From a virus (lineage: Duplodnaviria > Heunggongvirae > Uroviricota > Caudoviricetes), in the IMG/VR virus record IMGVR_UViG_3300009983_000002: DNA of 64,000 nt. One strand, 5' to 3'. The notes beneath the pieces were generated by a model. That model made no database searches, was not told the origin of the DNA, and worked only from the letters and a program-made list of their open reading frames with translations. Every line of letters begins with the position of its first letter. Position 1 is the first letter of the stretch. This document shows, in pieces, positions 1 through 64,000 of this stretch. The position numbers were made by a program, and so were the translations under genes.

Positions 1-1801
1 CTTCGCTTGGGTCGTAGCTGATCGTGATCGACGTGTTGTGATCGACGTAGTTCTCCATCGTCAGCTTGTAACGCTCAAGTTGCGAGACCGCTGGTTCAAG
101 GTTCACTTCGACTTCGGTTTCGCGACCGTTGATCACCATCTTCGCTTTGTCGAAACTGATGTTGGAATATTCGACGGGAACGCGAGCCAAGACGCCCGTG
201 GGATCGAATGGATTGTCGAAGACGTGATAGCCCGCACGCTTCAGCTTCTTGACCAGCGGGTCGTGCTTTCCAAACCCGATGTTGTTGAAGATGAAACGGC
301 CAAGCGGCTTGTGAATGCCTTCAGGGATTTCGAGCCCTTCGATGCTGAGCGCCTTCGATTGCGTGCCGCTGGGCTTGATCGTCGTCACGGCCTTGGCCCG
401 GGGCAGGCCGAGTTCGTCGGCCATGCTGTGAGCGCCTTGCACCGCGACTTCACGAAGGGCGGCCCAGGCTTCAGCTTCGTCGGCCAACTCCCACGCGACG
501 ACGCCGGTAACGCCGACTCCGCAGAGACGCAGGAACTGATTGAGTTCGTGCCAGCCGCGTTGGAGCACGCCGTCGTCGAGGTTGACGCAAGTCTGGCGAT
601 AATTGGCGCGGGCCACGAGGTAGTGAGCGCGATGCAGCGCTTTCTCGTCGCCGTTGAAGCGGAACACCACGGTCTCGACGAGATTGCAGAAGCTGCGGTT
701 GCCGAGCAGGATTTCCGCACAAGGGTTCAGGCCCTTATACCACGGAGCACGGCGACGAGCGGCGGCCCCGTTGACAAAGCCGGGCTCACTTCCACCGGCA
801 TCGAGCATCATCTCGAAGACCTTGCGGAGCTTGTAGCGTGTGGGCTTGTCGTAGAAGACGAGGCTGTTGTTCGACTGGGCACGCTGGACGTTGCCCGTGG
901 CCCAGAAGTCTTTCTTCGCCGTCGCGAACTCGCGCCACTCCGGCGACCCGTATTCGACGAGCGCGATCTGCGCTGACCGGCGCGTGCTGAGAATGGTCCC
1001 CAGCCAGTTGACGATGTCGAGGATGTCGATCTTCGTCAGCAACTGACCGGCGCGGCGGTTCATGATCGCGAAGATGTTGCGGTAGGCTTCGATGATGGGC
1101 CCCGGCCCACTGCTGATCCAGCCGTAGCCCTTCAGGCGCTGGCCCGCTGGGCGAATCTGAGAGGTATCGAGAACGAAGCGCTTCGCCGGATACTTCCCGG
1201 CCATGATCTTCCCGATGGACTTCGCCCAGGCTTCAGCGCTGTCGCCGATTTGGATGATCCAGGTCCCCGTCGTCGGATCGTAGTGCTCGCCGTTGTCTTC
1301 GCTGCCGCGATCTCCGTATTCCCAAAGCGTGCGATCATACCCAGCTTCGCCCTGGACGATGAACTCCGGGATTTCGCACTGGAACCCATTGAGGCTGCCG
1401 ACGACGGGAGTGAACCCAACGCCACAACCCTGGAGAAGCAGCCATAGCACATCGACCATGTCATGCACGGTCTCGACTTCGACGTGAGAGCAGTTGAATT
1501 GCGAGGATTCGCGGCGCTTGGCGATCTCGGTGCCGCCGAGCCAACGTGTGCGGCCCGACACCGTCACCTTGTGCTCCAGCATCAGCGTCCGTAGCTCTTC
1601 AAGTTCTTGCTGCTGTGCGGGTTCAAGTGTTTTGTGCTGAGCACGCTCCCAGAGCCACCGCTGATGCTTGATCACGCGGTCGATGGCCTGTTCTGGGGTC
1701 TCGAAGGTCTTGCCCTGTTCGTCGAGAGGCCGGAGATAGGTGCGGTGGGTGACGATTTGAGCACGCACACTGGGGCGTGCTTCGTTTGGGCGAAGCTTCA
1801 C
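1..1801 (-). CDS. ribonucleotide reductase, class II-like (B12-type); N-terminal ~600 aa, C-terminus lies beyond window start
   Basis: Hand translation of minus strand from GTG at 1801 (GGAGA SD 6 nt upstream) is stop-free down to nt 1 (VKLRPNEARPSVRAQIVTHR...). Contains GLNPCAEILLGNRSFCNLVETVVF, matching the NPCxE...CNL active-site cysteine motif of class II RNR. Track ORF 38..976(+) is the antisense shadow. Not in ORF track because there is no in-window stop. Confidence 0.75.
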   Translation of the reverse strand, partial: MKLRPNEARPSVRAQIVTHRTYLRPLDEQGKTFETPEQAIDRVIKHQRWLWERAQHKTLEPAQQQELEELRTLMLEHKVTVSGRTRWLGGTEIAKRRESSQFNCSHVEVETVHDMVDVLWLLLQGCGVGFTPVVGSLNGFQCEIPEFIVQGEAGYDRTLWEYGDRGSEDNGEHYDPTTGTWIIQIGDSAEAWAKSIGKIMAGKYPAKRFVLDTSQIRPAGQRLKGYGWISSGPGPIIEAYRNIFAIMNRRAGQLLTKIDILDIVNWLGTILSTRRSAQIALVEYGSPEWREFATAKKDFWATGNVQRAQSNNSLVFYDKPTRYKLRKVFEMMLDAGGSEPGFVNGAAARRRAPWYKGLNPCAEILLGNRSFCNLVETVVFRFNGDEKALHRAHYLVARANYRQTCVNLDDGVLQRGWHELNQFLRLCGVGVTGVVAWELADEAEAWAALREVAVQGAHSMADELGLPRAKAVTTIKPSGTQSKALSIEGLEIPEGIHKPLGRFIFNNIGFGKHDPLVKKLKRAGYHVFDNPFDPTGVLARVPVEYSNISFDKAKMVINGRETEVEVNLEPAVSQLERYKLTMENYVDHNTSITISYDPSE

Positions 1802-1890
1802 GGTTGTCTCCGGTGATCTGATTTTGAAGGGGGAGGATAAGCGAAAATCGAGGGCCCGGGCAAGTTCTAAACTGGGCCCACCGCGCCAAA

Positions 1891-2250
1891 TTATTTTTTG
1901 GCTACCGGATACTCGACTTTGGCTGCTTCCATGAGGTCGGACAAGTTGCAGGGCTTCCCATCAAGGGTATAGCCGTTCTTGTTTTCCCCCAAACGGTCGC
2001 CCAAGCGATAGGCAACGATGTCCATAATCGTATAGCCTTCGGCCAAGGTCGGCTCTTTCTTGACCTTGGGGTTCTTCTTGACGATGCGGGCCTTGCGGGG
2101 CCCGACGCCCAGAATCTTGATCCAGCGTTTGACCGTGGACAACCCAACGCCGTAGTGTTCGGCGATCTCTTCACGCGACCATCCCTGGTCACGGAAGCCC
2201 TCAAGTTCGTCTTTAGTTGGCGGCTGTTTTGCCAGCTTCTTCTTCGTCAT
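1891..2250 (-). CDS. small helix-turn-helix DNA-binding protein
   Basis: 119 aa; EIAEHYGVGLSTVKRWIK resembles an HTH (sigma region-4 / small-terminase-like). Basic C-terminal half. Confidence 0.5.
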   Translation of the reverse strand: MTKKKLAKQPPTKDELEGFRDQGWSREEIAEHYGVGLSTVKRWIKILGVGPRKARIVKKNPKVKKEPTLAEGYTIMDIVAYRLGDRLGENKNGYTLDGKPCNLSDLMEAAKVEYPVAKK

Positions 2251-2491
2251 TTTCAGTCTTTGGCGGAGCCAAAGGCGTGAAGAGTTCGGGGCAGAGGCGA
2301 CGAGCGACGCCTTCGATCTGGCCCGAATGAATCAGACGTTGGACGGTGAGAGCGTATTTCAAGGCAAGGGTCGCCGGTTCGTCACCGGAGCCTACGGCCT
2401 CTACGATCTCTTTGTCCAGCGTGATGTTCAACGCGATGGAGGGTTTCTCCGTCACGAAAACATCTTCGATGCTGATCACGACTTTGGTCAT
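2213..2491 (-). CDS. hypothetical protein
   Basis: 92 aa ORF with genuine-looking composition. Overlaps next gene by 38 nt, so the downstream start may be later. Confidence 0.4.
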   Translation of the reverse strand: MTKVVISIEDVFVTEKPSIALNITLDKEIVEAVGSGDEPATLALKYALTVQRLIHSGQIEGVARRLCPELFTPLAPPKTENDEEEAGKTAAN

Positions 2492-3414
2492 GGTTGTGTC
2501 CTCTCATATTTCGTAATGCGTTCGTTGTCGAAGAGCTTCCGGTATTGCACCCAGCCCTCCGCCAAATTTCCGTTCTTCCCCACCCCTGCGTTCCAGCGCA
2601 TGGCGCCGCGCTTCAGGAGTTCGATGTCGAGCCAGTCAGCCATCGCCTGATGTTCGGCGGGGCTGGCGTGCAGCGGCGTCATCTGCATCAGCTTGTCGTG
2701 CAGGGCAGCGTCCTCGGCCAGCGTTGGGTCTTTCCCATCGTGCAGCTTATAGCTGGTCCGGGCGCAACGCGCAACGCTCTTCTTCAGGAGGTCGCCGGGG
2801 TGTGGCCGCAGGACGTGTTCGGCGGGGTGGACGTAGGGCAGGTGCCATTGGCCGCGCTTCAACGTCACCGGGGCACTCGCGAGCCGCGCCTGATACATGG
2901 CTTCGGCCAGAACCTGCATCTCCGGCAGCGCGTCCTTGTGGATGCGGAGCCCGAAGAAGTTCTCGTAGTCTGACGACGTGATGACGACCGTGATATGGGC
3001 CCAGGGCTCCAGCAAGCGGTTGACGATTTGCTTGTGATAGCCGCTCTTCGCGAACCCTTCTGCGGTCTCGATGGCGCGATCCATTGCATTCAACCAAGCG
3101 CTCACGGGCTTGTTGAAGACCACGGCGCGATGAATGTCTTGGCGAATGACCTCGACGCTCTCTTCGATCTCGGCCCCGGCCTGCATCCCCGGCTGGTTGG
3201 AGCCCCACGATAGGGGGATCGCGGGATCGCGCCGCATGTCCTCGATCATCTTCTTCACGGGGATCGCGCGTGAGCTTGAAGCATTCCGCGAGAACACGCG
3301 GTGCGTCATGACTTCGGCGTGAGCGAAGCGAGGATACCGGACTTCGAAGGTGGTGAGGCGGTCGCCCGTGTGATAGTGTTTGCTATCAGCGAGCACCTTA
3401 GCGGTGATCGTCAT
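2488..3414 (-). CDS. thyX: flavin-dependent thymidylate synthase ThyX
   Basis: 308 aa; THRVFSRNASSSRAIP matches the ThyX RHRxxSxxxxSxR signature. Start ATG overlaps upstream stop (ATGA). Confidence 0.8.
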   Translation of the reverse strand: MTITAKVLADSKHYHTGDRLTTFEVRYPRFAHAEVMTHRVFSRNASSSRAIPVKKMIEDMRRDPAIPLSWGSNQPGMQAGAEIEESVEVIRQDIHRAVVFNKPVSAWLNAMDRAIETAEGFAKSGYHKQIVNRLLEPWAHITVVITSSDYENFFGLRIHKDALPEMQVLAEAMYQARLASAPVTLKRGQWHLPYVHPAEHVLRPHPGDLLKKSVARCARTSYKLHDGKDPTLAEDAALHDKLMQMTPLHASPAEHQAMADWLDIELLKRGAMRWNAGVGKNGNLAEGWVQYRKLFDNERITKYERTQP

Positions 3415-4366: not shown

Positions 4367-5722
4367 TTAACCAGAAACGACGGTCAACCGTTCGGCGGCC
4401 CGGGTCACGGCGGTGTAGAGCCAGCGGTCGGCGTCGTCGCGGAAGCTCCGCGACTCGTCGTGAACCACGACTTCATCCCATTGCGAGCCCTGGGACTTGT
4501 GGCAGGTGAGAACCCAGCCGAAGTCTGCGTGCTGATACTTCTTGCGGGCATCCCAGAGCTTGTGATCGGCAATCGTGGCCGCGTTCAGGCGCTGGAAGAC
4601 GTGCTCTTCGAAGGGGGCTTGGAGCAATGTCAGGGCGTATTCGACATCCTCTTCGTCGATGACCTTGATGGGGAACGACTCTTCGCCTTCGACGAGTGGC
4701 GTCACCGACTCCATACACGTCACGATGCTGCCGTTGACGAGCGCCGGGTGCTGCCTGGAGTTCCGAGTGATCAGGATCGGTTCGTTGGCCTGCGGCGCCG
4801 AGAACGCCGCGTAACCCAACGCACGGCGGATTTTGGCGGTCAGGGCCCAGCGCGTCTTATGTGTGCCGCAGATGACTTGGAGGTCCCGTGTCAAATCCGT
4901 GGTGACGTTGTCGGCCTTGCGGGGGATGATCTTCACGAGCCCACCGTATTCGCCGTGCTGCACCCGGTTGCCCTGGCGCACTTGCGCCGACAACCAGATG
5001 ATGGGATTGTCTGCGGCTTGACGGTGGATTTCGGTGAGGAAGAAGTCGGGCGTGTGTTGGGTGAAGCCCGGCTTCTCGCTGACAGGCGGAAGCTGGCCGG
5101 GGTCGCCAATGGCGAGCACGGGGATGCCGAAGCTCAGAAGATCGTTGGCGATGTCGATGCCCACCATCGACGCTTCATCGACGACGACGAGGCGCTTGCT
5201 GCGGACCATAGATTCTTCGTTGAATTCGAAGGTGAGCCCCGACTTGCGGTCGTTGAGGGCCTTGCGGAGTTTCGCGCTGGCCTTCGTCTCTGCGGCTTCG
5301 ACTTCTTTCAGCCGCGCTTCTTTTGTTGCGATTTCATCAACGGGCGTAGGGTCGCAGGCGCGCAAGCGCATGAGGTCGGCGGAGAGTTGTGCGACTTCGG
5401 CGTGGCAGGCCGCAACCTCTTGGCGGATGCGTTCTGCGGCTTCGCCGGGCTTGCGATAAATCAGCTTGTGGATTGTCGTCGCCGTGACATCCCAGCCCTG
5501 GGCTTTGAACTTCTGCATCATGACCTTCGCGGCCTTGCCCGTTGGGGCGCAGAACGCGACTTGGCTGGGCGTCAGCCCGCATTGGTCGATGATGTCGGGG
5601 AGGATTGTGGACTTGCCGGTGCCCGCGTAGCCCGCGAGATAGAAGAAGGGCTTCGAGCGGTCGCCGAACCAGCGAGAGACTTTGCGAACTGCGTCCGCTT
5701 GCATATCAGAGAGAGTTGGCAT
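4367..5722 (-). CDS. SF1 DNA helicase, RecD/Dda-like
   Basis: Walker A AGYAGTGKST, Walker B VVVDEASM, and C-terminal WLYTAVTRAAERLTVV typical of RecD/Dda/Pif1-type helicases. Confidence 0.8.
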   Translation of the reverse strand: MPTLSDMQADAVRKVSRWFGDRSKPFFYLAGYAGTGKSTILPDIIDQCGLTPSQVAFCAPTGKAAKVMMQKFKAQGWDVTATTIHKLIYRKPGEAAERIRQEVAACHAEVAQLSADLMRLRACDPTPVDEIATKEARLKEVEAAETKASAKLRKALNDRKSGLTFEFNEESMVRSKRLVVVDEASMVGIDIANDLLSFGIPVLAIGDPGQLPPVSEKPGFTQHTPDFFLTEIHRQAADNPIIWLSAQVRQGNRVQHGEYGGLVKIIPRKADNVTTDLTRDLQVICGTHKTRWALTAKIRRALGYAAFSAPQANEPILITRNSRQHPALVNGSIVTCMESVTPLVEGEESFPIKVIDEEDVEYALTLLQAPFEEHVFQRLNAATIADHKLWDARKKYQHADFGWVLTCHKSQGSQWDEVVVHDESRSFRDDADRWLYTAVTRAAERLTVVSG

Positions 5723-5787
5723 GGCACCGTGCCTATGAAGTGGCCCGGGTGTTACCCCGGGCCAGTGCTTTCAACTTGGGTGGAGGA

Positions 5788-6510
5788 TTAGAAGCGACGC
5801 GAGCCGCGCTTCACTTCCTGCGCCGGAGGCGGCGGCGGGGCCGCTTCTTCGGCTTCTTGCGCCGCAGCGGCTTCAGCTTCGAGCGCGTCGAGCTTGGCGC
5901 CGAGTTCGGCTTCGTCGGCCCAGCCCACGATCTTCAGGACCGGCGCATACTTCGTCGGTTGGCCGCGAACATTCTTCAGGACGAAGCTGTTGCTGCCGAG
6001 TTCGACGACCGGCACTTCGCCGTCGTGACGCGCCATTTCCTTCGCGAAGTCGCGGAGCAGGTTGCCCATCGCGATCTCGCCCGACTTGTTGCTGACCTGG
6101 AATTCGTAGGTCACGCCGGTTTCCACGTCGCGCATCGTCACCGTGCGCTGCGCCGACCAGCCGTCTTTCGTGCCGTCGTCATACGTCTTATACGGGCCGT
6201 GGTCCGGGAGTTCCGACGCCGGAGGCGGATTGCCAGCGATGACCGGCACCATGATCTTCTCGATCATCTCGCCTTCTTTCCAGCAGATGTAGCCGACGCT
6301 GTAGTCGTTCATGTTCACGGCGAGTTGCGTGCCGAGCGGCAATTCTTCTTTGTCTTTGCCGTAGATGTAGACGCCGTCGTTCCCGTTGAACTTCAGGAAC
6401 TGGGCGCCGGAGAATTCGGCGCTGCCGTGTTGACCGGCAATGGCGGCCCACTTTTCAGCGTTGGCAGTAGCAACTGCGCCACCTTGGGCGGCTTTTACGA
6501 GAGCGTTCAT
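5788..6510 (-). CDS. hypothetical protein; possible ssDNA-binding or annealing protein
   Basis: 240 aa. Sits between helicase and exonuclease genes. Ala/Glu-rich C-terminal tail with Pro5 stretch. No motif recognised, so functional guess rests on synteny only. Confidence 0.3.
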   Translation of the reverse strand: MNALVKAAQGGAVATANAEKWAAIAGQHGSAEFSGAQFLKFNGNDGVYIYGKDKEELPLGTQLAVNMNDYSVGYICWKEGEMIEKIMVPVIAGNPPPASELPDHGPYKTYDDGTKDGWSAQRTVTMRDVETGVTYEFQVSNKSGEIAMGNLLRDFAKEMARHDGEVPVVELGSNSFVLKNVRGQPTKYAPVLKIVGWADEAELGAKLDALEAEAAAAQEAEEAAPPPPPAQEVKRGSRRF

Positions 6511-6615
6511 GTCTGTTCTTTCTGTTCAGGCTGCTTTAGTTGTTCAAGCTGCGTTAGTTTGTTGAGGCTACCCGATGTTCATTATGAACACAAGGGGGTT
6601 CGCCCATCGGGCGAA

Positions 6616-7686
6616 TTAGTAATCGAGGTTGACGGTCAGTTTTTCGTAGGGCAGGCCCTCCGTTTCGTAGTCGGCGATGTTGATCTCTGGATAGTCTTCG
6701 GCGAGGCGCTTGAGGTCGGTGGTTTTCCGGCCCGCGATCTTCACCCAAGACGCCTTGCCCCAGTCGCCGCTAACGCGGTTCTCTTTGAGTTCACGCATCC
6801 GTTCTTTGATGCCATTCTTCGCGAGTTCGAAAGCGTATTCCGCTTTGTCGTGTGCGGCCTTCGCTTCGTCGTAGGCTTTCACGAGGCGCGTCATCTCGAT
6901 GTCTTCGAGAGGAATGTGCTTCTTCCCGCTGTCGGGGATGCTGCCGGTTTGCACCTTCGCACACGCGGCCTTGAACGGGCAGTATTCGCAACTGCCGTCG
7001 AACTTGCCTTCTGGGGCAAACTTCGTTGGGTCGTCGATGGCCCAGACGTTGGTCGCGCGCTTCTTCGCGGTGTTCCAAAGCTTCTCTTCGAACTTGACGA
7101 CGAAGACCTTGATGTTGTCGAGGAAGGAGGCATCGACGTAGAGGATCACCGCGTAGTTCGGCTTGTGCTCCGTGAGTTCGCGAACGAGGCCCATTTGGAC
7201 TTGGGTCTGGCCGTGGTGGATGGCCTTCTCTTCACGCAAGCCCACGCGGGGGTCGATACTCTTGATTTCGAGCATCACGCAGTTGCCGCCGATGTCTTCG
7301 ATGCCATACTTCTCCAGCGCGTTGCGCTTGAGCCCGGTGAGAAGACCGTCAGGGGTCGCGGAGTTCTTGCCGCTGACCAGCGTGTGTTGATCGGAGCCCG
7401 CGTAAAGGGCCTTGATGCCCTTCGGCAGATATTGAAGCGCGGGGACCACGAAGTGATTTTCGATGATGTCACCACGGCGCGTCGCGCCCCAGGTCTCTTC
7501 GTAGTCCTCGTCCTTGGTGTAGCCGAATTCGGCGCCGCGCTTGGCGAACCAGCCTTTGCGGAGACAGCCGAAGACTTCGGAGGCACCCAACGTAGTCGAG
7601 CGGTCGTGCGCCCAGACCTTTTGGGAATCGGCGATGTAGGCCTTGAACATGGCCTCAAAGTCAAGTGGTTCGTTGGCCTTCGCCAT
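6616..7686 (-). CDS. PD-(D/E)XK nuclease, Cas4/RecB-like (phage exonuclease)
   Basis: TPDGLL...VMLEIKS gives the PD...ExK core. N-terminal Cys plus C-terminal CEYCPFKAAC gives a Cas4-type Cys cluster. Confidence 0.7.
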   Translation of the reverse strand: MAKANEPLDFEAMFKAYIADSQKVWAHDRSTTLGASEVFGCLRKGWFAKRGAEFGYTKDEDYEETWGATRRGDIIENHFVVPALQYLPKGIKALYAGSDQHTLVSGKNSATPDGLLTGLKRNALEKYGIEDIGGNCVMLEIKSIDPRVGLREEKAIHHGQTQVQMGLVRELTEHKPNYAVILYVDASFLDNIKVFVVKFEEKLWNTAKKRATNVWAIDDPTKFAPEGKFDGSCEYCPFKAACAKVQTGSIPDSGKKHIPLEDIEMTRLVKAYDEAKAAHDKAEYAFELAKNGIKERMRELKENRVSGDWGKASWVKIAGRKTTDLKRLAEDYPEINIADYETEGLPYEKLTVNLDY

Positions 7687-8306
7687 TATGCAGCTTCCTT
7701 GAAGGCGTCCATTTTCAGGAGTTCGTCGTAGACACGGATTGTCATCCGCACGTCAACGAGAGCATCGTGAGCACCGACGACCGATTCCTTGAAGAAGTAT
7801 TGAGCGCACTCTTCGAGCTTCGGCCATTTGAAGTCGGCGGGGTGACGGGGACGCTTGTGCGGGACCCTCACGATAGGCACCGAAGTTAGCATAGTGCAGC
7901 GAGGTTGACAACTTGCGAAGCGGTCCTTCACGTCTTCTTCGCTGACCCCGGCACGCCACATTGCGCGCTTCATGATCAGGGCGTCGAAGTTGATGTTGTG
8001 GGCGACGATGGTGTCCGCGACGGACATCATGTTGCCAAAAAGGTAGGCCGCGTTGTCGATGGCGACCCCGAACTTCTCCGCGTATTCCTGTTTGATCCCG
8101 TGGACGTTCGCGGCGCCCGGCGTGATCACCCAGCCCTCGGGCTTGACGATGACGTTGACCGTCGAGATTTCGAGCTTCGTCGTGTCGTCGCGGAGGATTG
8201 CCGCAAGCTGGACAACGTCGGGGTGCGTTGGGTCGCTGATGGGAGCGCCCCACTTCGCCACGGTGCCCGTGGTCTCGGTGTCGAAGAAGAGTGTCGCGCC
8301 AGACAT
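7686..8306 (-). CDS. DEDDh 3'-5' exonuclease (DnaQ-like)
   Basis: FFDTETTG (Exo I), HNINFDALI (Exo II), HDALVDVRMT (Exo III with His). Confidence 0.8.
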   Translation of the reverse strand: MSGATLFFDTETTGTVAKWGAPISDPTHPDVVQLAAILRDDTTKLEISTVNVIVKPEGWVITPGAANVHGIKQEYAEKFGVAIDNAAYLFGNMMSVADTIVAHNINFDALIMKRAMWRAGVSEEDVKDRFASCQPRCTMLTSVPIVRVPHKRPRHPADFKWPKLEECAQYFFKESVVGAHDALVDVRMTIRVYDELLKMDAFKEAA

Positions 8307-13689: not shown

Positions 13690-14071
13690 ACTTGGTCTTC
13701 AGAATTCCGATAGCGCCTTCGAGGAAGGCATTTATTCTCGGCGCGCGCTTCGGGAGTTCGGAGAGGCCGGTCCCCAAGCCGTCTTCGGGGAAGACCACGA
13801 TCTTCCCGCTGTCGAGCGCCGCTGTCACCGCCGCGAGGTCGTTGCTGATCATCCGCGTCGCCACGACGTAGTTGAGGTCGGAGAAGAAAGAGGCGGGGCG
13901 CATGTCGGGCTTCCACTTCGTGCGGACCCCGATGGCGTTGGGTTCGCCGCGAGCTTCCCCAGCTTGGCCGCCCAGGCCCTCGCGTTCGTCGTTGTCCCCG
14001 AAGACGTAGATCACGTTGGGGTTGTTGCGGAGGTCAGAACGGTAGTATCTCTTCTGGGTGATCAACGGCAT
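13604..14071 (-). CDS. hypothetical protein, possible LOG/SLOG-family Rossmann-fold protein
   Basis: VIYVFGDNDEREGLGGQAGEARGEPNAIGVRT and VVFPEDGLGTGLSEL loosely parallel the LOG family VFGGG...GLMG and PGGxGTxEE motifs. Weak call. Confidence 0.3.
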   Translation of the reverse strand: MPLITQKRYYRSDLRNNPNVIYVFGDNDEREGLGGQAGEARGEPNAIGVRTKWKPDMRPASFFSDLNYVVATRMISNDLAAVTAALDSGKIVVFPEDGLGTGLSELPKRAPRINAFLEGAIGILKTKYASRTYTAAEVGALLRGDKLAGDSDPAG

Positions 14072-18645: not shown

Positions 18646-18813
18646 GTGTGTCTCCTTCGTTGATGCACCCTTCTACCCAACGCAGGTGGGGCAGTCAACA
18701 ACAATCGTGCTTAATGTCATAAAATAATTTCTGTTGACAGCCCCAACCAGTGTGGTAGAGTCGGGATTGGCTCGACTAAGGGCCCCGGTGACGGGCTTCA
18801 AACGCCTGTTGAT
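18646..18813. promoter_or_regulatory. divergent intergenic control region (leftward promoter for rIIA block, rightward promoter for plus-strand block)
   Basis: 168 bp non-coding between divergent gene blocks. Contains TTGACT, 25 nt, then TGCATCAACGAAGGAG leader (minus strand), CACCTGCGTTGGGT motif, and a second TTGACA (plus, 18747). Confidence 0.5.
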
Positions 18814-19113
18814 ATGCTGGGGCCCTTCAGCGGCCTCGTTAACCTTGGAAAGGGACCATCAGTGTTGAAATTCCTCGCCGCCATCGGCGCAATCGTCTTA
18901 GGTGCGTTGGGTGTTGCCGCCCTCGTTGTCCTCGGCGTGCTGCTCGGCATCATCGGCGGCGTGATCGCCGCCTCGATCTTCGCCTTCTTCTTCCCCGCGA
19001 CCGTGGCCGCGCTTCTCAGCGTGACCCCGTTCACCGCCGCGTATCAACTCGGCGCCGCACTGGGCTTCGTCGGCGGCTTCTTCAAGGCCACGCTGACGAC
19101 GAAGAAAGACTAA
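18814..19113 (+). CDS. small membrane protein
   Basis: 99 aa, almost entirely hydrophobic (Gly/Ala/Val/Leu-rich helices). First gene of plus-strand block. Confidence 0.5.
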   Translation: MLGPFSGLVNLGKGPSVLKFLAAIGAIVLGALGVAALVVLGVLLGIIGGVIAASIFAFFFPATVAALLSVTPFTAAYQLGAALGFVGGFFKATLTTKKD

Positions 19114-19505: not shown

Positions 19506-19736
19506 ATGAGCGTGACGACACTGAACACAACGAGCCCGGCGGACCTCGTGAGAGCGAAGGTCAAGGAAGCCCTCGCCTTCTTCCAGGGCCAAGCAAACAC
19601 GAATGAGCTTTACGCGAGCACGCTCGCCGACGCTCCTTTCGATGACCTCCCACGTTCCGGCATCTACGCCGATGGTGCCCGCGTTGGCCGCGATGAAGTT
19701 GTCGCTGCTGTCTTAGCTGCGTTGGGTGCCGAGTGA
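19506..19736 (+). CDS. hypothetical protein
   Basis: 76 aa; strong SD GAAGGAG 7 nt upstream. Confidence 0.5.
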   Translation: MSVTTLNTTSPADLVRAKVKEALAFFQGQANTNELYASTLADAPFDDLPRSGIYADGARVGRDEVVAAVLAALGAE

Positions 19737-37478: not shown

Positions 37479-37777
37479 GCAAGCGCATCGAAAAGTCGAT
37501 CTACGGCCAGCGCATCTTGGAGACCGTTGCGAAGTTTCAGGGGGCATCCGCTGTCTTCGGCAAGGCCTCGAAGCACAACTTCGTCACCCTGTCCTACGGC
37601 GGGAAGTCCCGCGACGTGATATTCCCCGCGTCTCCCAGCGATCACCGTGGGGCCTTGAATTGCGCCTCAGACTGTGCGAAGGTCTTGACTGCGTTGGGTG
37701 CCGTTCGCGTCAAGAGCGAAAAGGGTGGACAACAGAAGGCGTCCGAGCAACAACGGAATATGGAGAAGGCCTCGTGA
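37475..37777 (+). CDS. hypothetical protein
   Basis: 100 aa; ATGA coupling. Confidence 0.4.
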   Translation: MSKRIEKSIYGQRILETVAKFQGASAVFGKASKHNFVTLSYGGKSRDVIFPASPSDHRGALNCASDCAKVLTALGAVRVKSEKGGQQKASEQQRNMEKAS

Positions 37778-40005: not shown

Positions 40006-40919
40006 CGCCACCCGAGCCACACGGGAATCCGTGGCTTCTCCTTAGAGCCTTCGCGCTGGAACTTATACTTCGCGAGCTTGCCCATGACCACGGCCTCGTT
40101 ACCGGCCATGATCTCATTCCAAATCGCGATACGTTCGTCTTCACTCCAGCCGTTGCCGAGCTTGAAGTGCTCTGCGGGCCAGCCGTGTAGGCGCACGACG
40201 ACGCCGCCCAGCATCCCCGCCTTCGTCTTCCCCGCTTTGTGCGTGCTGCGCTTCGCGTAGCCGCGTTCGTCGCGGGTCTGTTCGTTCTCGTTGTGCTCGC
40301 GTTCGTAGTAGCCGATGACTTCGCCTTCAGCGTCTTCGAAGGGCTTGAGCTTGATCAGAATCTGCTCTTTCTCCGTGCTGCGTCCAAACTTGTAGAGCGC
40401 TGCGGGGTCGCGGAGCATCAGGCCTTCGTAGCCGTCAGCGATATAAGCGTGCATCATTGCCTCCGCCTCTTCCCATGTGTAGACTGGGAAGTGCTGCACG
40501 AGTTGCACATGCGGGCCGATAGCCGCACACTTGTCGGCGGCGATGCTCAGGCGGTCGAGGTAGCTCAGGGTCGGGCGGTCGAAGTCATCGACGTAGTCGA
40601 AGACGTGGAAGACAACGCCATCGGCAACGGCATCGTGCGTGGAGAATGCGGACATCGTTGTCTGCATCGCATCTGCGGCGTTGCAGGGACCGGCGACGAT
40701 CTCGCCGTCGAGCCCTGAGAGTCGGGGGTCGGAGAAGAGGGCTGATAGGGCTGCGTTGGGTATGGGCTTCAGGGTCCGGGACAGGGCTTGGCCGTCCCTG
40801 ACGATCATGCGGATGCCGTCGAACTTCGGGCTCGCCCAGAAGGGAAAGCGTAGCGGGTGTTTCTCCCGGTCTGGGTGTTCGGCAAGGAGGGGCTTGAACC
40901 CCAGGACGCGCTTAGCCAC
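39975..40919 (-). CDS. ATP-dependent DNA ligase
   Basis: GTG start (SD GGAG 6 nt upstream); 315 aa. Motif I SPKFDGIRM (KxDGxR), motif IV GYEGLMLRD, motif V LIKLK. Confidence 0.8.
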   Translation of the reverse strand: MAKRVLGFKPLLAEHPDREKHPLRFPFWASPKFDGIRMIVRDGQALSRTLKPIPNAALSALFSDPRLSGLDGEIVAGPCNAADAMQTTMSAFSTHDAVADGVVFHVFDYVDDFDRPTLSYLDRLSIAADKCAAIGPHVQLVQHFPVYTWEEAEAMMHAYIADGYEGLMLRDPAALYKFGRSTEKEQILIKLKPFEDAEGEVIGYYEREHNENEQTRDERGYAKRSTHKAGKTKAGMLGGVVVRLHGWPAEHFKLGNGWSEDERIAIWNEIMAGNEAVVMGKLAKYKFQREGSKEKPRIPVWLGWRHPDDAGSLP

Positions 40920-43985: not shown

Positions 43986-44660
43986 TCAACGCTTTTCGGG
44001 GCGGGTCATGTAGGCTTCGAGGGCCTTTTTCAGGACCGGGGCCGTCTCGTCGTCGATGGCGATCATCTGGCGAACGACGCCGCCGGAGTTCGTGCCGATG
44101 AAGAGGAATCCCGAATCAGGAGGCAGCGCAAATTTCAGGTGTCCCCGGCCCTGGAGGTTCGCCTTGTCAGCGATCTCATACTCGCGGGCGGGCATCACGG
44201 CTTCGAGCCTTTGGGGGTAGAATTGCTCGACGAGTTCGATGAAGGCCTCGGCCAGCGGGGTCGCCCAATAGACGTTGGCCCCGTGAGCGCTGGTGTAGAC
44301 GTGGCCGCAGAGGCGATCCTCGGTGCCGTGGAGGGAGGTCGGGACGCCCTTGATGCGGGAGTATTGCATCATGTCCATCGACGCCCCGGTGCGTCCGAGT
44401 TGCGTGGCCGTGAACTTCGGGTCGGGCTCGCCGCCGCGCCGTGCGGCATGGGTGCGCTTGACCAATGTGTAGATCGACGCCAGCGCCGAATCAGTGATCG
44501 TGTGGGCCTTCACATACAGAAGGTGATCGAAGTGCGGAAGGCTGCTCTTGAAGCTGCCCTTCACCGTGTCCCACGGCGGTTGCTTCTTCCGGGAGTTCCA
44601 CGAACGCTTGCGTTGGGTTTGCATGGGGTGGGTTATTCCACCAAATCCAAATCGCGTCAA
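43986..44660 (-). CDS. hypothetical protein
   Basis: 224 aa. Confidence 0.4.
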   Translation of the reverse strand: MTRFGFGGITHPMQTQRKRSWNSRKKQPPWDTVKGSFKSSLPHFDHLLYVKAHTITDSALASIYTLVKRTHAARRGGEPDPKFTATQLGRTGASMDMMQYSRIKGVPTSLHGTEDRLCGHVYTSAHGANVYWATPLAEAFIELVEQFYPQRLEAVMPAREYEIADKANLQGRGHLKFALPPDSGFLFIGTNSGGVVRQMIAIDDETAPVLKKALEAYMTRPEKR

Positions 44661-49961: not shown

Positions 49962-50028
49962 GGTGTCCCTCCTTCTTTCTCGCGTTAGTGCGTTGGGTCC
50001 CGCCGGAGCGGGACCCTTCGCGTTCGTA

Positions 50029-51405
50029 TCAGGCCGACTTGTCGGTCTGGGTGGCCGCCGGAGCGTTGGTGTTCACGCCCAGACGGGCGAGAGCCGCAGC
50101 ACCTGCGTCGGTGTTGGCGAAGCCTTCGAGCAGCGCGCCGAAGGCGAGACCGCCCTTGGAGCCCAGCAAGTCGCCGATGCTCGCGATGCCCGAGGCCGCG
50201 TCGCCGGAGTTGGCGATGACCTTGATGTTCGCGGCTTCGAGCGCGCCAGCGTTCGCGATGCCGACAGCTTGCGCCGCCTTCACTTTCTCGATGCTGACGA
50301 GATAGGCTTGGTATTCCGGCAGAGCCGCGATCTTCTCGGCGAGAGTGATCTGGGCTTCGACCGGCGCCAAGAGCAGCAGACGTTGCGCGTCGGCAGTGGC
50401 GACACCGTTGACCTGGGTCGCTTCGGCCTTGCGCTTTTCTTGTTCCAGCACGCCTTCGGCGGTCAGGATCGTCTTTTGCTTTTCGCCTTCAGCGAAGATG
50501 ATGTCGGTCGCTTTGACCTGATCGGCTTCGACGATGGCGGCGTTCTTCGCGATTTCGGCCTTGCGTTGGGTCTCGACGCCGAGAACATCCATTTCGCGCT
50601 CTTTCGTCACGCGGGCTTGCGCCTGGATTTCTTGCTTCGAGACTTCGTTCGCGATGCCGACCGCTTGCAGTTGTTGAGCTTGGCGCTCGCCGACCGCTTG
50701 CTTCGCTTGTTCGTTGCGAAGATCAACTTCTTGCTTCGCCGCAATTTCTGCGGTTTCGGCAGCCTGCCGGTTCTTCGCGACTTCGAGACGCGATTCCATG
50801 TCGATATGGCTGATCTTCTTCGCCATGATGTTGGCGATGACCTTCGAGCCATCGGCGTCGCGGATGTCCATGAGTTCCAGGTTCTTCACGGGCTCGACGC
50901 CCCAGTTCTGGAGTTCAGTGCGGACTTCGTTGGTGAAGGCATCGCCGAAGGTTGAGCGGTCGCCCATGATCTTCGAGATTTCTTCGTTCGCCAGAATTTT
51001 ACGCACCGCGCCCTGCACGACGGCCTGAAGTTGTTGCTTCAGTTCGTTGAAGTTGGCGACGCGCTTGGCGGCGACGTTGGTGTCGGCGATGCGGAAGAAC
51101 GCGACGAGGTCGAGTTCAAACGGCACGCGATCTTTGTCATACGCTTTGTAAGCGTGCAGCGAAAGATCGAAGTTGTTCACCGGCAGTTCGATGACGGTCA
51201 CGCCGAAGATCGGAATGAACGACGGGATTTTGTAGTAGACGTTGCCATCCGGCATGTTCGCGCCGTATGACGTGGTCTTCCGCGCCGACTGCACGATATG
51301 CACGGTGTTGGTTTCGACGACCACGCGCCACGCGAAGGCGAGGAACAGGCCGACGATGACGAGCAGAGCGAGCACGCCAACAACGATGGGGATCAAGAGG
51401 TCCAT
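50029..51405 (-). CDS. SPFH/Band-7 (flotillin/prohibitin-like) membrane protein
   Basis: 458 aa; N-terminal TM helix, SPFH-like core, then very long Ala/Glu/Gln/Lys-rich coiled-coil (AEIAAKQEVDLRNEQAKQAVGERQAQQLQ...). Confidence 0.7.
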   Translation of the reverse strand: MDLLIPIVVGVLALLVIVGLFLAFAWRVVVETNTVHIVQSARKTTSYGANMPDGNVYYKIPSFIPIFGVTVIELPVNNFDLSLHAYKAYDKDRVPFELDLVAFFRIADTNVAAKRVANFNELKQQLQAVVQGAVRKILANEEISKIMGDRSTFGDAFTNEVRTELQNWGVEPVKNLELMDIRDADGSKVIANIMAKKISHIDMESRLEVAKNRQAAETAEIAAKQEVDLRNEQAKQAVGERQAQQLQAVGIANEVSKQEIQAQARVTKEREMDVLGVETQRKAEIAKNAAIVEADQVKATDIIFAEGEKQKTILTAEGVLEQEKRKAEATQVNGVATADAQRLLLLAPVEAQITLAEKIAALPEYQAYLVSIEKVKAAQAVGIANAGALEAANIKVIANSGDAASGIASIGDLLGSKGGLAFGALLEGFANTDAGAAALARLGVNTNAPAATQTDKSA

Positions 51406-54019: not shown

Positions 54020-54154
54020 TTAGCGGATGATGGAGAAGACATAGTCGGGCCCCAGTTGGCGGATGATCTCGACGCACTGCATCGAATAGTAATACGGTGG
54101 CGCAAGTGCGTTGGGTTCTTCCCCACGCTTGTGGATGACGTAGTAGGGGATCAT
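54020..54154 (-). CDS. tiny protein (44 aa)
   Basis: MIPYYVIHKRGEEPNALAPPYYYSMQCVEIIRQLGPDYVFSIIR; ATGA coupling. Confidence 0.25.
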   Translation of the reverse strand: MIPYYVIHKRGEEPNALAPPYYYSMQCVEIIRQLGPDYVFSIIR

Positions 54155-55357: not shown

Positions 55358-55420
55358 CTCAAATCTCCTTCGATGCCCCAAGGTGCCACACCTGCGTTGG
55401 GTGGTCAAGCAAATTCGTGC
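55358..55420 (-). promoter_or_regulatory. promoter/leader (minus strand) with conserved elements
   Basis: On the minus strand: TTGACC, then 25 nt containing ACCCAACGCAGGTG, then GGGCATCGAAGGAGATTTG, then ATG. The leader is 19/19 identical to the one at 32996-33014. The -35 overlaps the 3' end of the CoiA-like gene. Confidence 0.45.
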
Positions 55421-56560: not shown

Positions 56561-56727
56561 TTGGGTTTCCGACCGTGCGTTGGGTATTCGGCCCTCTCCC
56601 AAGCCGAAATCGCTCATTCGTAACCGAGCGCCCCGCCGTGTAACCGAGATGGTTAACGGCTGGGTTACAGGTAAGGTTGACGAAAATGGTTGACATTAAC
56701 CATTTCCTGGAGTAGCGTTTAACCTTA

Positions 56728-60609: not shown

Positions 60610-60900
60610 TTGCGTTAAGGTTAACCCAGGTTAAGGTTAACAGCCGTTAAGGTTAACGCGGCATTAAGGTTAACGCCCGGCGGCGGCCCGTTAAGGTTAA
60701 CGCCACACGCGGTTCCGTTAAGGTTGAAAATTAAGGTTAACCCGGGAGGCCGCCGCGTTAAGGTTAACGCAGGCCGGGAACGTGTTAAGGTTAACCGGGC
60801 GGGGCGCCGCGTTAACCCTAACCCAACGCAGGGCCGCGTTAACCCTAATGGATCACGCCGCCGCGTTAACCATGATGGGCGGCTGTGCCAAAATGAGGCG
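60610..60900. repeat. iteron array: 11 copies of TTAAGGTTAAC, then 3 copies of GCGTTAACC(C/A)T(A/G)A, with irregular GC-rich spacers
   Basis: Direct reading of 60613-60890. The core GTTAAC is palindromic. Track ORFs 60724..61011 and 60782..61129 are artefacts of this repeat. Confidence 0.8.
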
Positions 60901-62185: not shown

Positions 62186-62463
62186 CCACGCAACCACGCT
62201 GCGAAACTTCCAAGCTAACCCAACGCGCGGCGCACGCTAAAGACGCTGGGAAGCTTGCGCCGTTGCAGCATCGGCATTTTGCGACAATCGCCACAATCAT
62301 CAAAGCGCTCGGCGCCGATGATTTTAGCAACGTGCGCGACCATTGCGTCAGCCTCGCCGACGCTGAAAATCTCCGCGCCGACATCGCGGAACACTTCGCG
62401 GCGAAACTCGCGAAGACTAACGATAAATTCGACCGCGCCCGCTTTCTTGCCGCTTGCAAATAG
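62182..62463 (+). CDS. small protein (93 aa)
   Basis: ATGA coupling. Confidence 0.4.
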   Translation: MTTQPRCETSKLTQRAAHAKDAGKLAPLQHRHFATIATIIKALGADDFSNVRDHCVSLADAENLRADIAEHFAAKLAKTNDKFDRARFLAACK

Positions 62464-62735: not shown

Positions 62736-62753
62736 GAGTCGAACATGCCGAAC

Positions 62754-63144: not shown

Positions 63145-63281
63145 TGCGAGGCCTTCCCGCAATCCTGCTAGTTTTGTTGGCGGGCTTGCTGGCGCCGCTT
63201 TTCTTGGGGCGCGATTGAAAAAAGCGCTTGCAATGCGCCGCGCTTGTGCTATTCTCCTTTGCATCGGAAGGAGAAACCGAT

Positions 63282-63518: not shown

Positions 63519-63544
63519 TCTTTTCATCGGAAGGAGAAACCGAC

Positions 63545-63697
63545 ATGAGACCGATCCACGAAGTTATCCGCGCCAGCGCCCAGACCGCTCAAACCGAGCG
63601 CGCCAACTGGGAAGGCCGCACGGCGCAAGCCAAGTTTGAAGGCGCTGCCGCCGCTGATCGTCAAGCGGTCGCCTTTGGCAAGCGCAAGGCTCGCTAA
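63545..63697 (+). CDS. small protein with hairpin-TIR (50 aa)
   Basis: ATG preceded by ATCGGAAGGAGAAACCGAC. Confidence 0.35.
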   Translation: MRPIHEVIRASAQTAQTERANWEGRTAQAKFEGAAAADRQAVAFGKRKAR

Positions 63698-63876
63698 TGT
63701 ATCGCGTCATTCATAACCAATTCGCGAGCGCGTTAAAAGACGCCTCGCGGCCTTGGCTGGTAATCAGCCCCTACCGCGTAGCAGGCCGCTACGCCACGCA
63801 AGCCCAAGCGAACCGCCGGGCCCGCGATTTGAACAAGGAGTCAGGTCATGGGGAAGTCACGGCGCGGCGATGAGGG
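63697..63876 (+). CDS. small protein (59 aa)
   Basis: TAATG coupling. Confidence 0.3.
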
Positions 63877-64000
63877 ACGCGAAAAGGCCGCCAAGCTAGC
63901 CGCACGCGAGCTAGAGCGGCGCGAGAAACAAAAGCAACGCGAGCCCCGCGACTAACTCCCGCGCTAGGCTCAACTCCCGGGAAGGCCGCGCCGCAAGGTG

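What the first reader, a model, noticed from the sequence alone, without database searches (positions are those of the whole stretch)
1..64000. Strand-biased, about 20-fold over-represented word TGCGTTGGGT scattered through coding and non-coding DNA
Exact GCGTTGGGT occurs at least 17 times.
- Plus-strand occurrences at about 2716, 8223, 13934, 19717, 26386, 32948, 37687, 38247, 40751, 44619, 49988, 54105, 55386 and 56575.
- Minus-strand occurrences at about 4815, 18679 and 60826.
- Composition-corrected expectation is below 1 occurrence on both strands.

Of these, 14 carry the 5' T, and many extend to CTGCGTTGGGTGCC.

The word lies inside genes of both coding orientations, so the bias is to the DNA strand, not to transcription. 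That is the behaviour of Chi-like RecBCD-modulating octamers, FtsK-orienting (KOPS-like) words, DNA-uptake sequences, or a phage-specific packaging or replication polarity signal.

Three copies extend to the 14-mer CACCTGCGTTGGGT in promoter regions.
Basis: seen in the sequence. Interest (0 to 1): 0.8.

Follow-up and report, generated by a model that had tools for sequence, protein, structure and literature searches.

The report
Chi-like polar 9-mer in a phage
A strict nine-base word, GCGTTGGGT, is scattered about 30 times more often than chance through this phage genome in two opposed arms that point at the genome end, exactly as the known Caulobacter Chi site is arranged in the related phage phiCbK, so it is most likely the recombination-hotspot (Chi) signal of the phage's unknown host.

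Summary
All nine bases are strict. Seventeen copies lie in genes, in every frame and on both the sense and antisense strand.

The window is 64 kb of an uncultivated phage syntenic with Caulobacter phage phiCbK. The strand bias is not uniform. It is a two-arm polarity:
- Copies are '-' from the end of the terminase gene through the early genes to about window 5 kb.
- Copies are '+' from about 8 kb to 56.6 kb.

Two related phages (63-87% protein identity) show the same word and polarity, and five of six sites are conserved between two of them.

In phiCbK, an unbiased scan for polar words returns the experimentally supported Caulobacter AddAB Chi, GCGGTGGT, as the top 8-mer, with the same two-arm layout. 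The same scan returns GCGTTGGGT as the top word here, and the two words share six of eight bases.

Best explanation (about 0.65): a Chi-like site of an unidentified, probably alphaproteobacterial, host. The host was not found, so recognition by AddAB or RecBCD is inferred, not shown.

The parts
1414..1422 (-). GCGTTGGGT copy in the class II ribonucleotide reductase gene, sense; left ('-') arm
2142..2150 (-). Copy in the HTH_23 gene (1891-2250), sense; left arm
2721..2729 (+). Copy in the ThyX gene, antisense; the one '+' exception inside the left arm
4814..4822 (-). Copy in the Dda/RecD-like helicase gene, sense; last '-' copy before the polarity switch
8225..8233 (+). Copy in the RNase T-like exonuclease gene, antisense; first '+' copy of the right arm; conserved in relative B
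13935..13943 (+). Copy in the DUF7831 gene, antisense; conserved in relative B
18675..18683 (-). Intergenic copy in the spacer of the rIIA promoter (TTGACT-N17-TAGAAG). Relative B keeps the promoter without the word and has a '-' copy about 64 bp away instead
18904..18912 (+). Copy in small gene 18862-19113, sense; conserved in B amid synonymous changes
19719..19727 (+). Copy at the 3' end of gene 19506-19736, sense; conserved in B
26387..26395 (+). Copy in the primase-helicase (DUF5906) gene, sense; conserved in B
32952..32960 (+). Intergenic copy (CACCTGCGTTGGGT) between a methyltransferase gene and the UvrD-like helicase gene
37437..37445 (-). Copy in gene 36603-37478, antisense; wrong-way copy in the right arm
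37691..37699 (+). Copy in gene 37475-37777, sense
38241..38249 (+). Copy in gene 37774-38286, sense
40753..40761 (+). Copy in the DNA ligase gene, antisense
44610..44618 (+). Copy in gene 43986-44624, antisense
49990..49998 (+). Intergenic copy overlapping a hairpin between two leftward genes
50563..50571 (+). Copy in the Band_7/SPFH gene, antisense
54108..54116 (+). Copy in small gene 54020-54154, antisense
55394..55402 (+). Intergenic copy (CACCTGCGTTGGGT) between two leftward genes, opposed to their transcription
56577..56585 (+). Intergenic copy in the AT-rich, iteron-bearing divergent region; last '+' copy. Near-cognate variants lie at 56211-, 56405+ and 56548+
60821..60829 (-). Intergenic copy flanked by GGGTTAAC repeats; first '-' copy after the terminase gene
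62218..62226 (-). Copy in early gene 62182-62463, antisense. Five more '-' copies follow just beyond the window end in near-identical contig L125
56586..59904 (.). Interval where polarity converges ('+' on the left, '-' on the right). It holds the terminase operon and the first 200 nt after terL. By synteny with phiCbK, whose 10.3-kb direct terminal repeat starts inside the 3' end of terL, this is the probable physical genome end
4823..8224 (.). Interval where polarity diverges ('-' on the left, '+' on the right), within the Dda helicase to exonuclease to PolA gene block. In relative B it is bracketed to the equivalent of about 5.36-5.79 kb. phiCbK switches in the same gene block (94.4-108.4 kb)

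Best explanation
GCGTTGGGT is a Chi-like site: the short asymmetric signal read on single-stranded DNA by the host's end-processing helicase-nuclease. That enzyme would be AddAB if the host is an alphaproteobacterium, and RecBCD otherwise.

**Proposed mechanism**
- The enzyme enters a double-strand end and degrades DNA.
- When it meets the word from its 3' side on the 3'-ended strand, it switches from destruction to resection and RecA loading.

**How the phage uses it**
- The phage has accumulated about 30 copies.
- They sit in two opposed arms, so an enzyme travelling inward from either direction towards the middle of the genome meets them in the active orientation.
- This covers entry at the genome end near terL, or at ends made when forks running outward from an internal origin break.
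- Density is highest in the early-gene, terminal-repeat-like region.

**Shown:** enrichment, strictness, site conservation, two-arm polarity, and the identical arrangement of the true host Chi in the syntenic phage phiCbK.

**Inferred:** that a host nuclease reads this word, the position of the physical genome ends, and the identity of the host.
For: **Properties of the word in this phage**
1. 23 copies against 0.67 expected. The excess is robust to Markov orders 0-3 and to synonymous-codon shuffles.
2. Every one of the nine positions is strict. Single-substitution variants occur 0-5 times, against 28, 20 and 13 exact copies in phages A, B and C. This fits enzyme-type recognition rather than a degenerate operator.
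3. Copies lie in coding and non-coding DNA, in all frames and on both sense and antisense strands.
4. 5 of 6 sites are conserved between A and B, although only 20% of aligned 9-mers are identical (p = 0.0016).

**Polarity**
5. From the terL end the order is 10 of 11 '-', then 15 of 17 '+' (permutation p = 0.00027).
6. B has 9 of 9 '-' after terL and 8 of 11 '+' in the replication region. C has 9 of 10 '-' after terL plus 3 more '-'.
7. Third-codon-position (GC3) skew has only a transcription term and no arm term (t = 1.06). The polarity is therefore not a compositional by-product. Strand-specific local expectations are at most 0.17 per block.
8. Density peaks right after terL, at 7-9 copies in about 6 kb, including tandem doublets.

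**Comparison with phiCbK and other phages**
9. The Caulobacter AddAB Chi is 5'-GCGGTGGT-3' and acts in one orientation only (PMC5443536). It shares 6 of 8 bases with GCGTTGGG.
10. phiCbK is gene-for-gene syntenic with this phage. It carries 58 host Chi against 15-19 expected. The first 17 copies are all '-'. All 21 copies from 145 to 195 kb are '+', part of an unbroken run of 22 that starts at 140 kb. There are 19 '+' against 1.09 expected in 160-205 kb.
11. An unbiased two-arm scan ranks GCGGTGGT first of all 8-mers in phiCbK (48 active, 10 inactive, p = 4e-21). It ranks GCGTTGGGT first in this phage (25 active, 3 inactive, p = 1e-31).
12. There is published precedent. Phages LLS and MD8 carry 23 and 32 host Chi sites, nearly all in one orientation and clustered at one end (PMC12315714).
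Against: - The host is unknown. No bacterial genome with this word enriched was found.
  - A pair-pattern scan of one genome per species of 185,579 species gave taxonomically scattered hits, mostly chance matches or tandem repeats.
  - A metagenome scan gave only eukaryotic rDNA spacer arrays and coding repeats.
  - 50 kb of an Asticcacaulis plasmid has 1 copy.
  - Both scans stopped at a limit of 120 rows and would miss a host with a low density of the word.
- Nine strict bases is longer than any characterised Chi site, which run from 5 to 8 nt (my knowledge).
- The arms for this phage were defined from the word itself. Only the phiCbK test was independent.
- The structural module is almost free of the word (0 copies in about 34 kb over A, B and C). 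A simple protect-everywhere model does not predict this.
- If a terminal repeat exists as in phiCbK, its right-hand copy carries the word in the inactive orientation.
- Closer relatives by protein identity lack any comparable polar word: Mwe-JY26 and, over the 50 kb examined, Lacusarx.
- Intergenic copies often sit among GGTTAAC repeats, and relative B has both orientations near an origin-like region. This could indicate a DNA-binding protein instead.
Confidence: 0.65

Rival explanations
1. The word is the recognition site of a phage-encoded enzyme. One option is a site-specific nickase, as in phage T5 or Pseudomonas phages tf and LUZ24, whose virion DNA is nicked at a short consensus on one strand. 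Another is the phage's own helicase-nuclease pair: the Dda/RecD-like helicase with the RecE/Cas4-like exonuclease.
For: - The 9-mer is strict, asymmetric, independent of coding and conserved at individual sites.
- The word is restricted to one phage clade (A, B and C). It is absent from Mwe-JY26 and, over the 50 kb examined, from Lacusarx.
- No host with the word was found.
- The phage encodes a RecE/Cas4-like exonuclease (6616-7686) close to, one gene away from, a RecD-like helicase.
Against: - The helicase and exonuclease are conserved in phiCbK and Mwe-JY26, which lack the word. A shared enzyme therefore does not explain a clade-specific word.
- Known nick systems mark one strand throughout the genome (my knowledge), not two opposed arms.
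- The same arrangement in phiCbK is built from the host's own Chi. That makes a host-determined signal the simpler reading.
Confidence: 0.14
2. The word is a replication or segregation polarity signal. It could be a KOPS-like guide for a translocase, a helicase or primase loading or priming site, or a polar fork barrier. Under this reading the two arms are replichores running from an internal origin to the genome ends.
For: - There are two arms of comparable length with sharp switch points.
- The divergence point lies within the replication-gene block.
- An AT-rich, iteron-bearing, origin-like region with several copies lies next to the convergence point.
Against: - In phiCbK the top polar word is the Chi sequence, not a GGGNAGGG-like word.
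- Known primase sites are trinucleotides and fork barriers are few and long (my knowledge).
- No FtsK-like translocase or dif-like site was seen.
- No replication-associated GC3 skew exists.
- The most origin-like region sits at the convergence point, the opposite of bacterial KOPS logic.
Confidence: 0.1
3. The word is a transcriptional element: a promoter core for a phage-modified RNA polymerase, or an operator or 'stoperator' bound by a phage repressor, as in cluster A mycobacteriophages.
For: - 6 of 23 copies are intergenic, although only 7% of the DNA is non-coding.
- Three copies share an 18-nt context, TGCCNCACCTGCGTTGGGT.
- Copies cluster in divergent regulatory regions.
Against: - Orientation is uncorrelated with transcription. 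It is antisense in the early block (7 of 7) and in 40-56 kb (6 of 6), but sense in 18.8-40 kb (6 of 7).
- 74% of copies are inside genes.
- The rIIA promoter is conserved in B without the word.
- The distance to the -35 box and to start codons varies.
- No Rfam family overlaps any copy.
Confidence: 0.04
4. The word is a chance or compositional artefact (codon usage, a dipeptide such as Ala-Leu-Gly, GC skew), or a DNA-uptake sequence of the host.
For: - The frame-0 sense reading GCG-TTG-GGT occurs 5 times.
- The word is G-rich.
Against: - Synonymous-codon shuffles reach at most 7, against 16 observed.
- All frames and both senses are used.
- Strand-specific local expectations are at most 0.17.
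- An uptake sequence at the usual density of about 1 per kb would have dominated the species-wide pair scan, and it did not.
Confidence: 0.01

Closest known systems
Host Chi sites accumulated in phage genomes: E. coli phage LLS (GCTGGTGG) and Pseudomonas phage MD8 (GCTGGCGC) (PMC12315714)
   Same: - A strict short asymmetric word is the most over-represented word in the phage.
- Density is about 1 per 2-3 kb.
- Copies lie in genes and between genes.
- Orientation is strongly biased, with clustering towards a genome end.
   Different: - Those are cos-type lambdoid phages with one orientation facing one end. Here there are two opposed arms.
- The word here is 9 nt and its host is unknown.
- No growth or nuclease data exist.
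- This phage does encode a RecE/Cas4-like exonuclease and a Holliday-junction resolvase. The high-Chi lambdoid phages lack a recombination module.
Caulobacter crescentus AddAB Chi, 5'-GCGGTGGT-3' (PMC5443536), as carried by phage phiCbK
   Same: - The word shares 6 of 8 bases with this Chi (GCG.TGG.).
- phiCbK is syntenic with this phage. It carries its host Chi in the same two-arm layout, with switches near terL and the terminal repeat, and in the Dda-PolA-rIIA block.
- Chi is the top polar word there, as GCGTTGGGT is here.
   Different: - The sequence differs. GCGGTGGT is not enriched in this window (1 copy against 2.1 expected), and GCGTTGGGT is not enriched in phiCbK (3 copies in 205 kb).
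- Enrichment here is about 30-fold, against 3-4-fold overall in phiCbK.
- phiCbK has copies through its structural module, whereas this clade has almost none there.
Chromosomal polar words of bacteria (Chi on the leading strand; KOPS/FtsK-orienting GGGNAGGG)
   Same: - G/T-rich asymmetric word.
- Two replichore-like arms with opposite orientation.
   Different: - This is a phage genome of about 90 kb, not a chromosome.
- No accompanying GC skew.
- No dif or FtsK context.
Site-specific nick consensus of phage T5 and Pseudomonas phages tf and LUZ24 (my knowledge)
   Same: Short asymmetric consensus, strand-specific and independent of coding.
   Different: - Those mark a single strand genome-wide and are few (about 5-15).
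- Whether nicks exist here is untested.

Membership tests
Chi (crossover hotspot instigator) site | Short, asymmetric, sharply defined sequence | tested here: met
   The 9-mer has all nine positions strict in three phages. The 5' flank prefers C then T.
Chi (crossover hotspot instigator) site | Over-represented beyond composition and codon usage in the genome that benefits from it | tested here: met
   23 copies against 0.67 expected. Codon shuffles reach at most 7, against 16 observed.
Chi (crossover hotspot instigator) site | Orientation polarised relative to DNA ends or replication direction, active when met from its 3' side on the 3'-ended strand | tested here: met
   Two arms hold 25 copies in the active and 3 in the inactive orientation. 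'-' copies follow the inferred left end and '+' copies fill the right arm. The position of the physical end is inferred from phiCbK synteny only.
Chi (crossover hotspot instigator) site | Identical to the over-represented, replichore-skewed word of the host chromosome | tested here: inconclusive
   The host is unknown. Pair-pattern scans of species genomes and metagenomes found no enriched clade, but each was capped at 120 rows. An Asticcacaulis plasmid was negative.
Chi (crossover hotspot instigator) site | Recognised by RecBCD or AddAB, attenuating degradation and stimulating RecA loading | not testable with these tools
   Needs biochemistry, or break-processing sequencing as in PMC5443536.
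Chi (crossover hotspot instigator) site | A relative with a known host carries that host's Chi in the same way (comparative support, not a definition) | tested here: met
   In phiCbK, GCGGTGGT is the top polar 8-mer, 48 active and 10 inactive, with syntenic switch points.
DNA uptake sequence (DUS/USS) | Present at about 1 per kb throughout the genome of a competent host | tested here: not met
   No genome or clade gave multiple independent pair hits among the 120 sampled from 185,579 species.
Stoperator or operator of a phage repressor | Mostly intergenic and oriented with the direction of transcription | tested here: not met
   74% of copies are in genes, and orientation is unrelated to gene direction.
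Promoter element | Fixed position and orientation upstream of genes, and conserved together with the promoter | tested here: not met
   The rIIA promoter is conserved without the word in B. Spacing and orientation vary.
KOPS/FtsK-orienting polar sequence | Skewed word converging on a dif site and read by the FtsK gamma domain | not tested
   No dif or FtsK context was seen. In phiCbK the top polar word is Chi, not a KOPS-like word.
T5/tf-type nick consensus | Single-strand interruptions in virion DNA at the consensus | not testable with these tools
   Requires virion DNA.

The most novel reading that the evidence does not exclude
The word is not the host's Chi. It is instead a clade-specific 'self' mark read by a phage-encoded enzyme: a nickase, or the RecD-like helicase working with the Cas4/RecE-like nuclease. 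That enzyme would spare or process phage DNA in a polar way while host DNA is destroyed. On this reading, the resemblance to the phiCbK/Chi arrangement reflects convergent use of the same genome geometry.
Probability: 0.12. Interest if true: 0.8.

Novelty: new member of a known kind. Interest (0 to 1): 0.6.

Why it matters
If correct, the phage hands us the Chi sequence of an uncultivated host. This has several consequences:

- **Host prediction.** The host could be found by looking for the genome in which GCGTTGGG(T) is over-represented and skewed between replichores.
- **Wider range of the strategy.** Chi accumulation would extend from lambdoid cos phages to large terminal-repeat phages of Alphaproteobacteria.
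- **A two-arm layout.** This implies either that both genome ends are exposed to the host nuclease, or that breaks occur at forks moving out from an internal origin.
- **A general method.** Scanning a phage genome for polar words recovered the true Caulobacter Chi from phiCbK alone. The same scan could infer Chi sequences for many bacteria that have never been studied.
- **CRISPR relevance.** Chi sites limit how much invading DNA is degraded and sampled for CRISPR spacers, so they affect how such phages escape immunity.

Tried and rejected
**Searches for related sequence**
- Nucleotide search of GenBank phages with 20 kb of the window found no match.
- A 14-mer scan of IMG/VR gave mostly chance single hits. 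Only L049 and L051 were relatives.
- A close-pair scan of IMG/VR recovered B and C again. Otherwise it found local TTGGGT-type repeats and coding repeats.
- Two exact-protein look-ups failed because of wrong start codons.

**Searches for the host**
- The pair-pattern scan of species genomes gave no enriched clade. Poribacteria hits are a REP-like element, and other multi-copy hits are CRISPR or tandem repeats.
- The metagenome pair scan found dense arrays that turned out to be eukaryotic rDNA intergenic spacers (Rfam), plus a repeat protein.
- An Asticcacaulis plasmid, tried as a guessed host, was negative for both words.

**Tests that came back negative or uninformative**
- Full-text literature search for the word and for GCGGTGGT returned only primers.
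- Rfam found nothing on the window.
- A GC3-skew regression for replichores gave no arm term.
- Looking for an origin at the divergence point (5.7-6.6 kb) found only a terminator-like hairpin. The most AT-rich, iteron-bearing spot is instead at 56.4 kb.
- Mwe-JY26 and Lacusarx have no equivalent polar word.

**Readings rejected:** promoter, stoperator, codon artefact, uptake sequence and packaging signal, for the reasons given under the rival explanations.

Full report
**The observation.** GCGTTGGGT occurs 23 times in the window, 16 on + and 7 on -. Dinucleotide-preserving shuffles expect 0.67, and Markov models of order 0-3 expect 0.6-0.8. Shuffling synonymous codons within each of 105 genes, which keeps the proteins and codon usage, gives a mean of 2.3 and a maximum of 7 in 1000 trials. 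Sixteen copies are observed inside those genes. It missed six copies and overstated the longer extension, but its positions and the three intergenic 14-mers are right.

**Nature of the word.** Seventeen copies lie in genes, in all three frames, 8 sense and 9 antisense. Six are intergenic, although only 7% of the window is non-coding. All nine positions are strict. In the three phages that carry the word there are 28, 20 and 13 exact copies, whereas each single-base variant occurs 0-5 times. The base before the word is T in 72% of 61 sites, and the one before that is C in 54%.

**The genome.** The window is positions 20,905-84,904 of an 84,922-nt metagenomic contig. It encodes:
- rIIA and rIIB;
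- a family A DNA polymerase;
- SNF2, Dda/RecD-like and UvrD-like helicases;
- a primase-helicase;
- two RNA ligases and a DNA ligase;
- ThyX, a dNMP kinase and a class II ribonucleotide reductase;
- a RecE/Cas4-like exonuclease and a Holliday-junction resolvase;
- a large terminase subunit at 58,028-59,695.

Cultured relatives are distant. They include Microcystis phage Mwe-JY26, Sphingobium phage Lacusarx, Ruegeria phages and the Caulobacter phiCbK group. Gene order is the same as in phiCbK from end to end.

**Polarity, not a simple strand bias.** The 16:7 split alone is not significant (p = 0.09). The orientation depends on position.
- A near-identical contig that runs past the window end has five '+' copies before the terminase region and seven '-' copies after it.
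- Ordered from the end of terL, the copies read 10 of 11 '-', then 15 of 17 '+'. The best split places 25 of 28 copies, with permutation p = 0.00027.
- The arrows converge between 56,577 and about 59,900, which covers the terminase operon and the first 200 nt after it.
- They diverge between 4,814 and 8,225.
- Orientation does not follow transcription. It is antisense in the early genes and in 40-56 kb, and sense in 18.8-40 kb.
- Third-position GC skew is explained by gene direction alone, with no arm term (t = 1.06).
- Strand-specific local expectations never exceed 0.17 per block.

**Relatives.** Phage B (72-87% protein identity) and phage C (portal 63%, a 132.7-kb contig) carry the same word.
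- B has 9 of 9 '-' copies after terL and 8 of 11 '+' in the replication region.
- C has 9 of 10 '-' after terL plus three more '-' further on.
- Between A and B, five of six sites are conserved while neighbouring wobble positions differ. Only 20% of aligned 9-mers are identical, giving p = 0.0016.
- Sites also turn over. B has copies where A has one-mismatch variants.
- The rIIA promoter is conserved in B without the word, and a '-' copy lies 64 bp away instead.
- Density is highest in the early-gene region just after terL, at 7-9 copies in about 6 kb with tandem doublets.
- The structural module is almost empty: 0 copies in about 34 kb summed over A, B and C.
- Mwe-JY26 (0 copies in 100 kb) and Lacusarx (1 copy in 50 kb) lack the word.

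**Where the ends probably are.** In phiCbK the experimentally annotated 10,287-bp direct terminal repeat begins inside the 3' end of terL. It covers the small genes that follow, up to the region before the portal gene. This phage has the same order: terL, a 1.1-kb repeat-rich non-coding stretch, small genes with sigma-70-like promoters, then the portal gene. By synteny the physical left end lies at or near the convergence point. This is an inference, because no reads were available.

**The decisive comparison.** The Chi sequence of Caulobacter AddAB is 5'-GCGGTGGT-3'. It was predicted computationally and shown to attenuate break processing in one orientation only (PMC5443536). It shares six of eight bases with GCGTTGGG.
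- In phiCbK it occurs 58 times against 15-19 expected.
- The first 17 copies (1-94 kb) are all '-'. All 21 copies from 145 to 195 kb are '+', part of an unbroken run of 22 that starts at 140 kb. The best split places 48 of 58, and none of 20,000 permutations reached that score.
- In 160-205 kb, where composition disfavours it, there are 19 '+' copies against 1.09 expected.
- The switch lies in the same replication-gene block as here (94.4-108.4 kb).

I then scanned for any word that is enriched, dispersed and oriented towards the two arms. For phiCbK the arms were set by synteny, not by Chi.
- The top 8-mer in phiCbK is GCGGTGGT (48 active, 10 inactive, p = 4e-21).
- The top word in this phage is GCGTTGGGT (25 active, 3 inactive, p = 1e-31).
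- Mwe-JY26 and the Lacusarx segment give nothing comparable.

Published work shows the same strategy in lambdoid phages. LLS has 23 Chi sites, 20 in one orientation and clustered at one end. MD8 has 32 Pseudomonas Chi sites, all in one orientation (PMC12315714).

**Interpretation.** The word most likely is the Chi-type signal of the phage's host.
- Relatives infect Alphaproteobacteria, which use AddAB (my knowledge).
- An enzyme entering at the left end meets '-' copies from their 3' side on the 3'-ended strand. An enzyme moving leftward through the right arm meets '+' copies in the same way.
- This geometry equally fits protection of ends made when forks from an internal origin break.

Recognition by a nuclease is not shown.

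**Weak points.**
- No host was found.
- The word is longer than known Chi sites.
- The structural module is empty of copies.
- A right-hand terminal-repeat copy would face the wrong way.
- Copies cluster among GGTTAAC repeats and, in B, in both orientations beside an origin-like region.

**Rivals.**
- A phage-encoded nickase or nuclease site, 0.14.
- A replication or translocase polarity signal, 0.10.
- A transcriptional element, 0.04.
- A compositional artefact or a DNA-uptake sequence, about 0.01.

**Verdict.** The feature is real, strongly non-random and conserved. It is best read as a new, host-unknown member of the known class of Chi sites accumulated by phages, in a two-arm layout shared with phiCbK. 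Interest is 0.6. The mechanism class is known. The sequence, the arrangement in this phage family and the ability to read a host's Chi from its phage are new and directly testable.

Noticed in passing
window 60597-60880; also L125 15990-16150, L274, and Lacusarx L275 39450-49670: About 11 direct copies of GTTAAGGTTAAC are followed by inverted GTTAACCCTAA copies just after terL. The same word recurs between early genes. It is shared with phage C and with Sphingobium phage Lacusarx (14 copies of TAAGGTTAA in 9 kb after terL). TGGTTAAC(G) is also among the top polar words of phiCbK. It is therefore a family-wide motif, distinct from GCGTTGGGT, and TTAACCAT resembles a CtrA half-site (my knowledge).
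   Followed up: partly
window 56200-56730; L388 1130-1780 in phage B: This is the most AT-rich spot of the window (74% AT at 56471-56550). It is flanked by iterons (GGTTACAT about 5 times, ATGTAAC 3 times) in a divergent intergenic region, which looks like an origin or an immunity-type control region. Phage B has different iterons there (TGTATCG), an XRE-type HTH gene and six GCGTTGGGT copies in both orientations.
   Followed up: partly
window 59696-60600: Further repeat families lie in the 1.1-kb non-coding stretch after terL: GGGACCCTnnGnTTTT 4 times (59756-59856), CTCTGAATC...TTTTGGC 4 times (60478-60580), and a palindrome at 60263-60290. These are candidate terminal-repeat boundary or packaging signals.
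   Followed up: no
window 61300-64000: A block of small genes each has a sigma-70-like promoter (TTGACA/TTGCAA-N17-TAnnnT) and a nearly identical leader, GGAAGGAGAAACCGATATG. This looks like an early, host-takeover region, equivalent to the genes inside the phiCbK terminal repeat.
   Followed up: no
window 12373+, 14638+, 56211-, 56405+, 60087-: The one-mismatch variant TGAGTTGGGT occurs five times and is itself far above chance. Where A has GAGTTGGGT at 12374, phage B has the exact word. These are possibly decaying, nascent or partly active sites.
   Followed up: partly
phiCbK NC_019405.1 (L516-L519, L276): The Caulobacter Chi GCGGTGGT is the top polar 8-mer of phiCbK, with 58 copies in two opposed arms and 19 against 1.09 expected on '+' in 160-205 kb. 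I found no mention of this in the searchable literature.
   Followed up: yes
window 21810-24300 and 38771-40919: A nucleic-acid repair set is present: HAD/PNKP phosphatase, T4 Rnl1-like RNA ligase, AAA_33 kinase, a second RNA ligase and a DNA ligase. This suggests counter-defence against tRNA or RNA cleavage.
   Followed up: no
window 4367-7686 and 56999-57514: A Dda/RecD-like helicase lies near, separated by a nucleotidyltransferase gene (5788-6510) from, a RecE/Cas4-like PD-(D/E)XK exonuclease, and a Holliday-junction resolvase sits in the terminase operon. No annealase, RecA-like or Gam-like protein was recognised.
   Followed up: partly
metagenome loci L469, L470, L397, L410, L513 and others: Dense irregular arrays of the same 9-mer (up to 27 copies in 2.3 kb, as TGGGCGTTGGGTG) lie in the intergenic spacer of a eukaryotic rDNA repeat, between the LSU and SSU genes by Rfam. 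They are unrelated to the phage and are a coincidence of sequence.
   Followed up: yes
Mwe-JY26 PP438418.1 61030-62310: Tandem and dispersed CTCCAGGCT copies (17, all on one strand) lie in the equivalent post-terL region. A weak polar candidate, CCGCGGTG (18 active, 5 inactive), appears genome-wide.
   Followed up: no
window 10807-11376 and 32126-32935: Two DNA methyltransferase-like genes are present. Their target sequences are unknown, and no link to the 9-mer was found.
   Followed up: no
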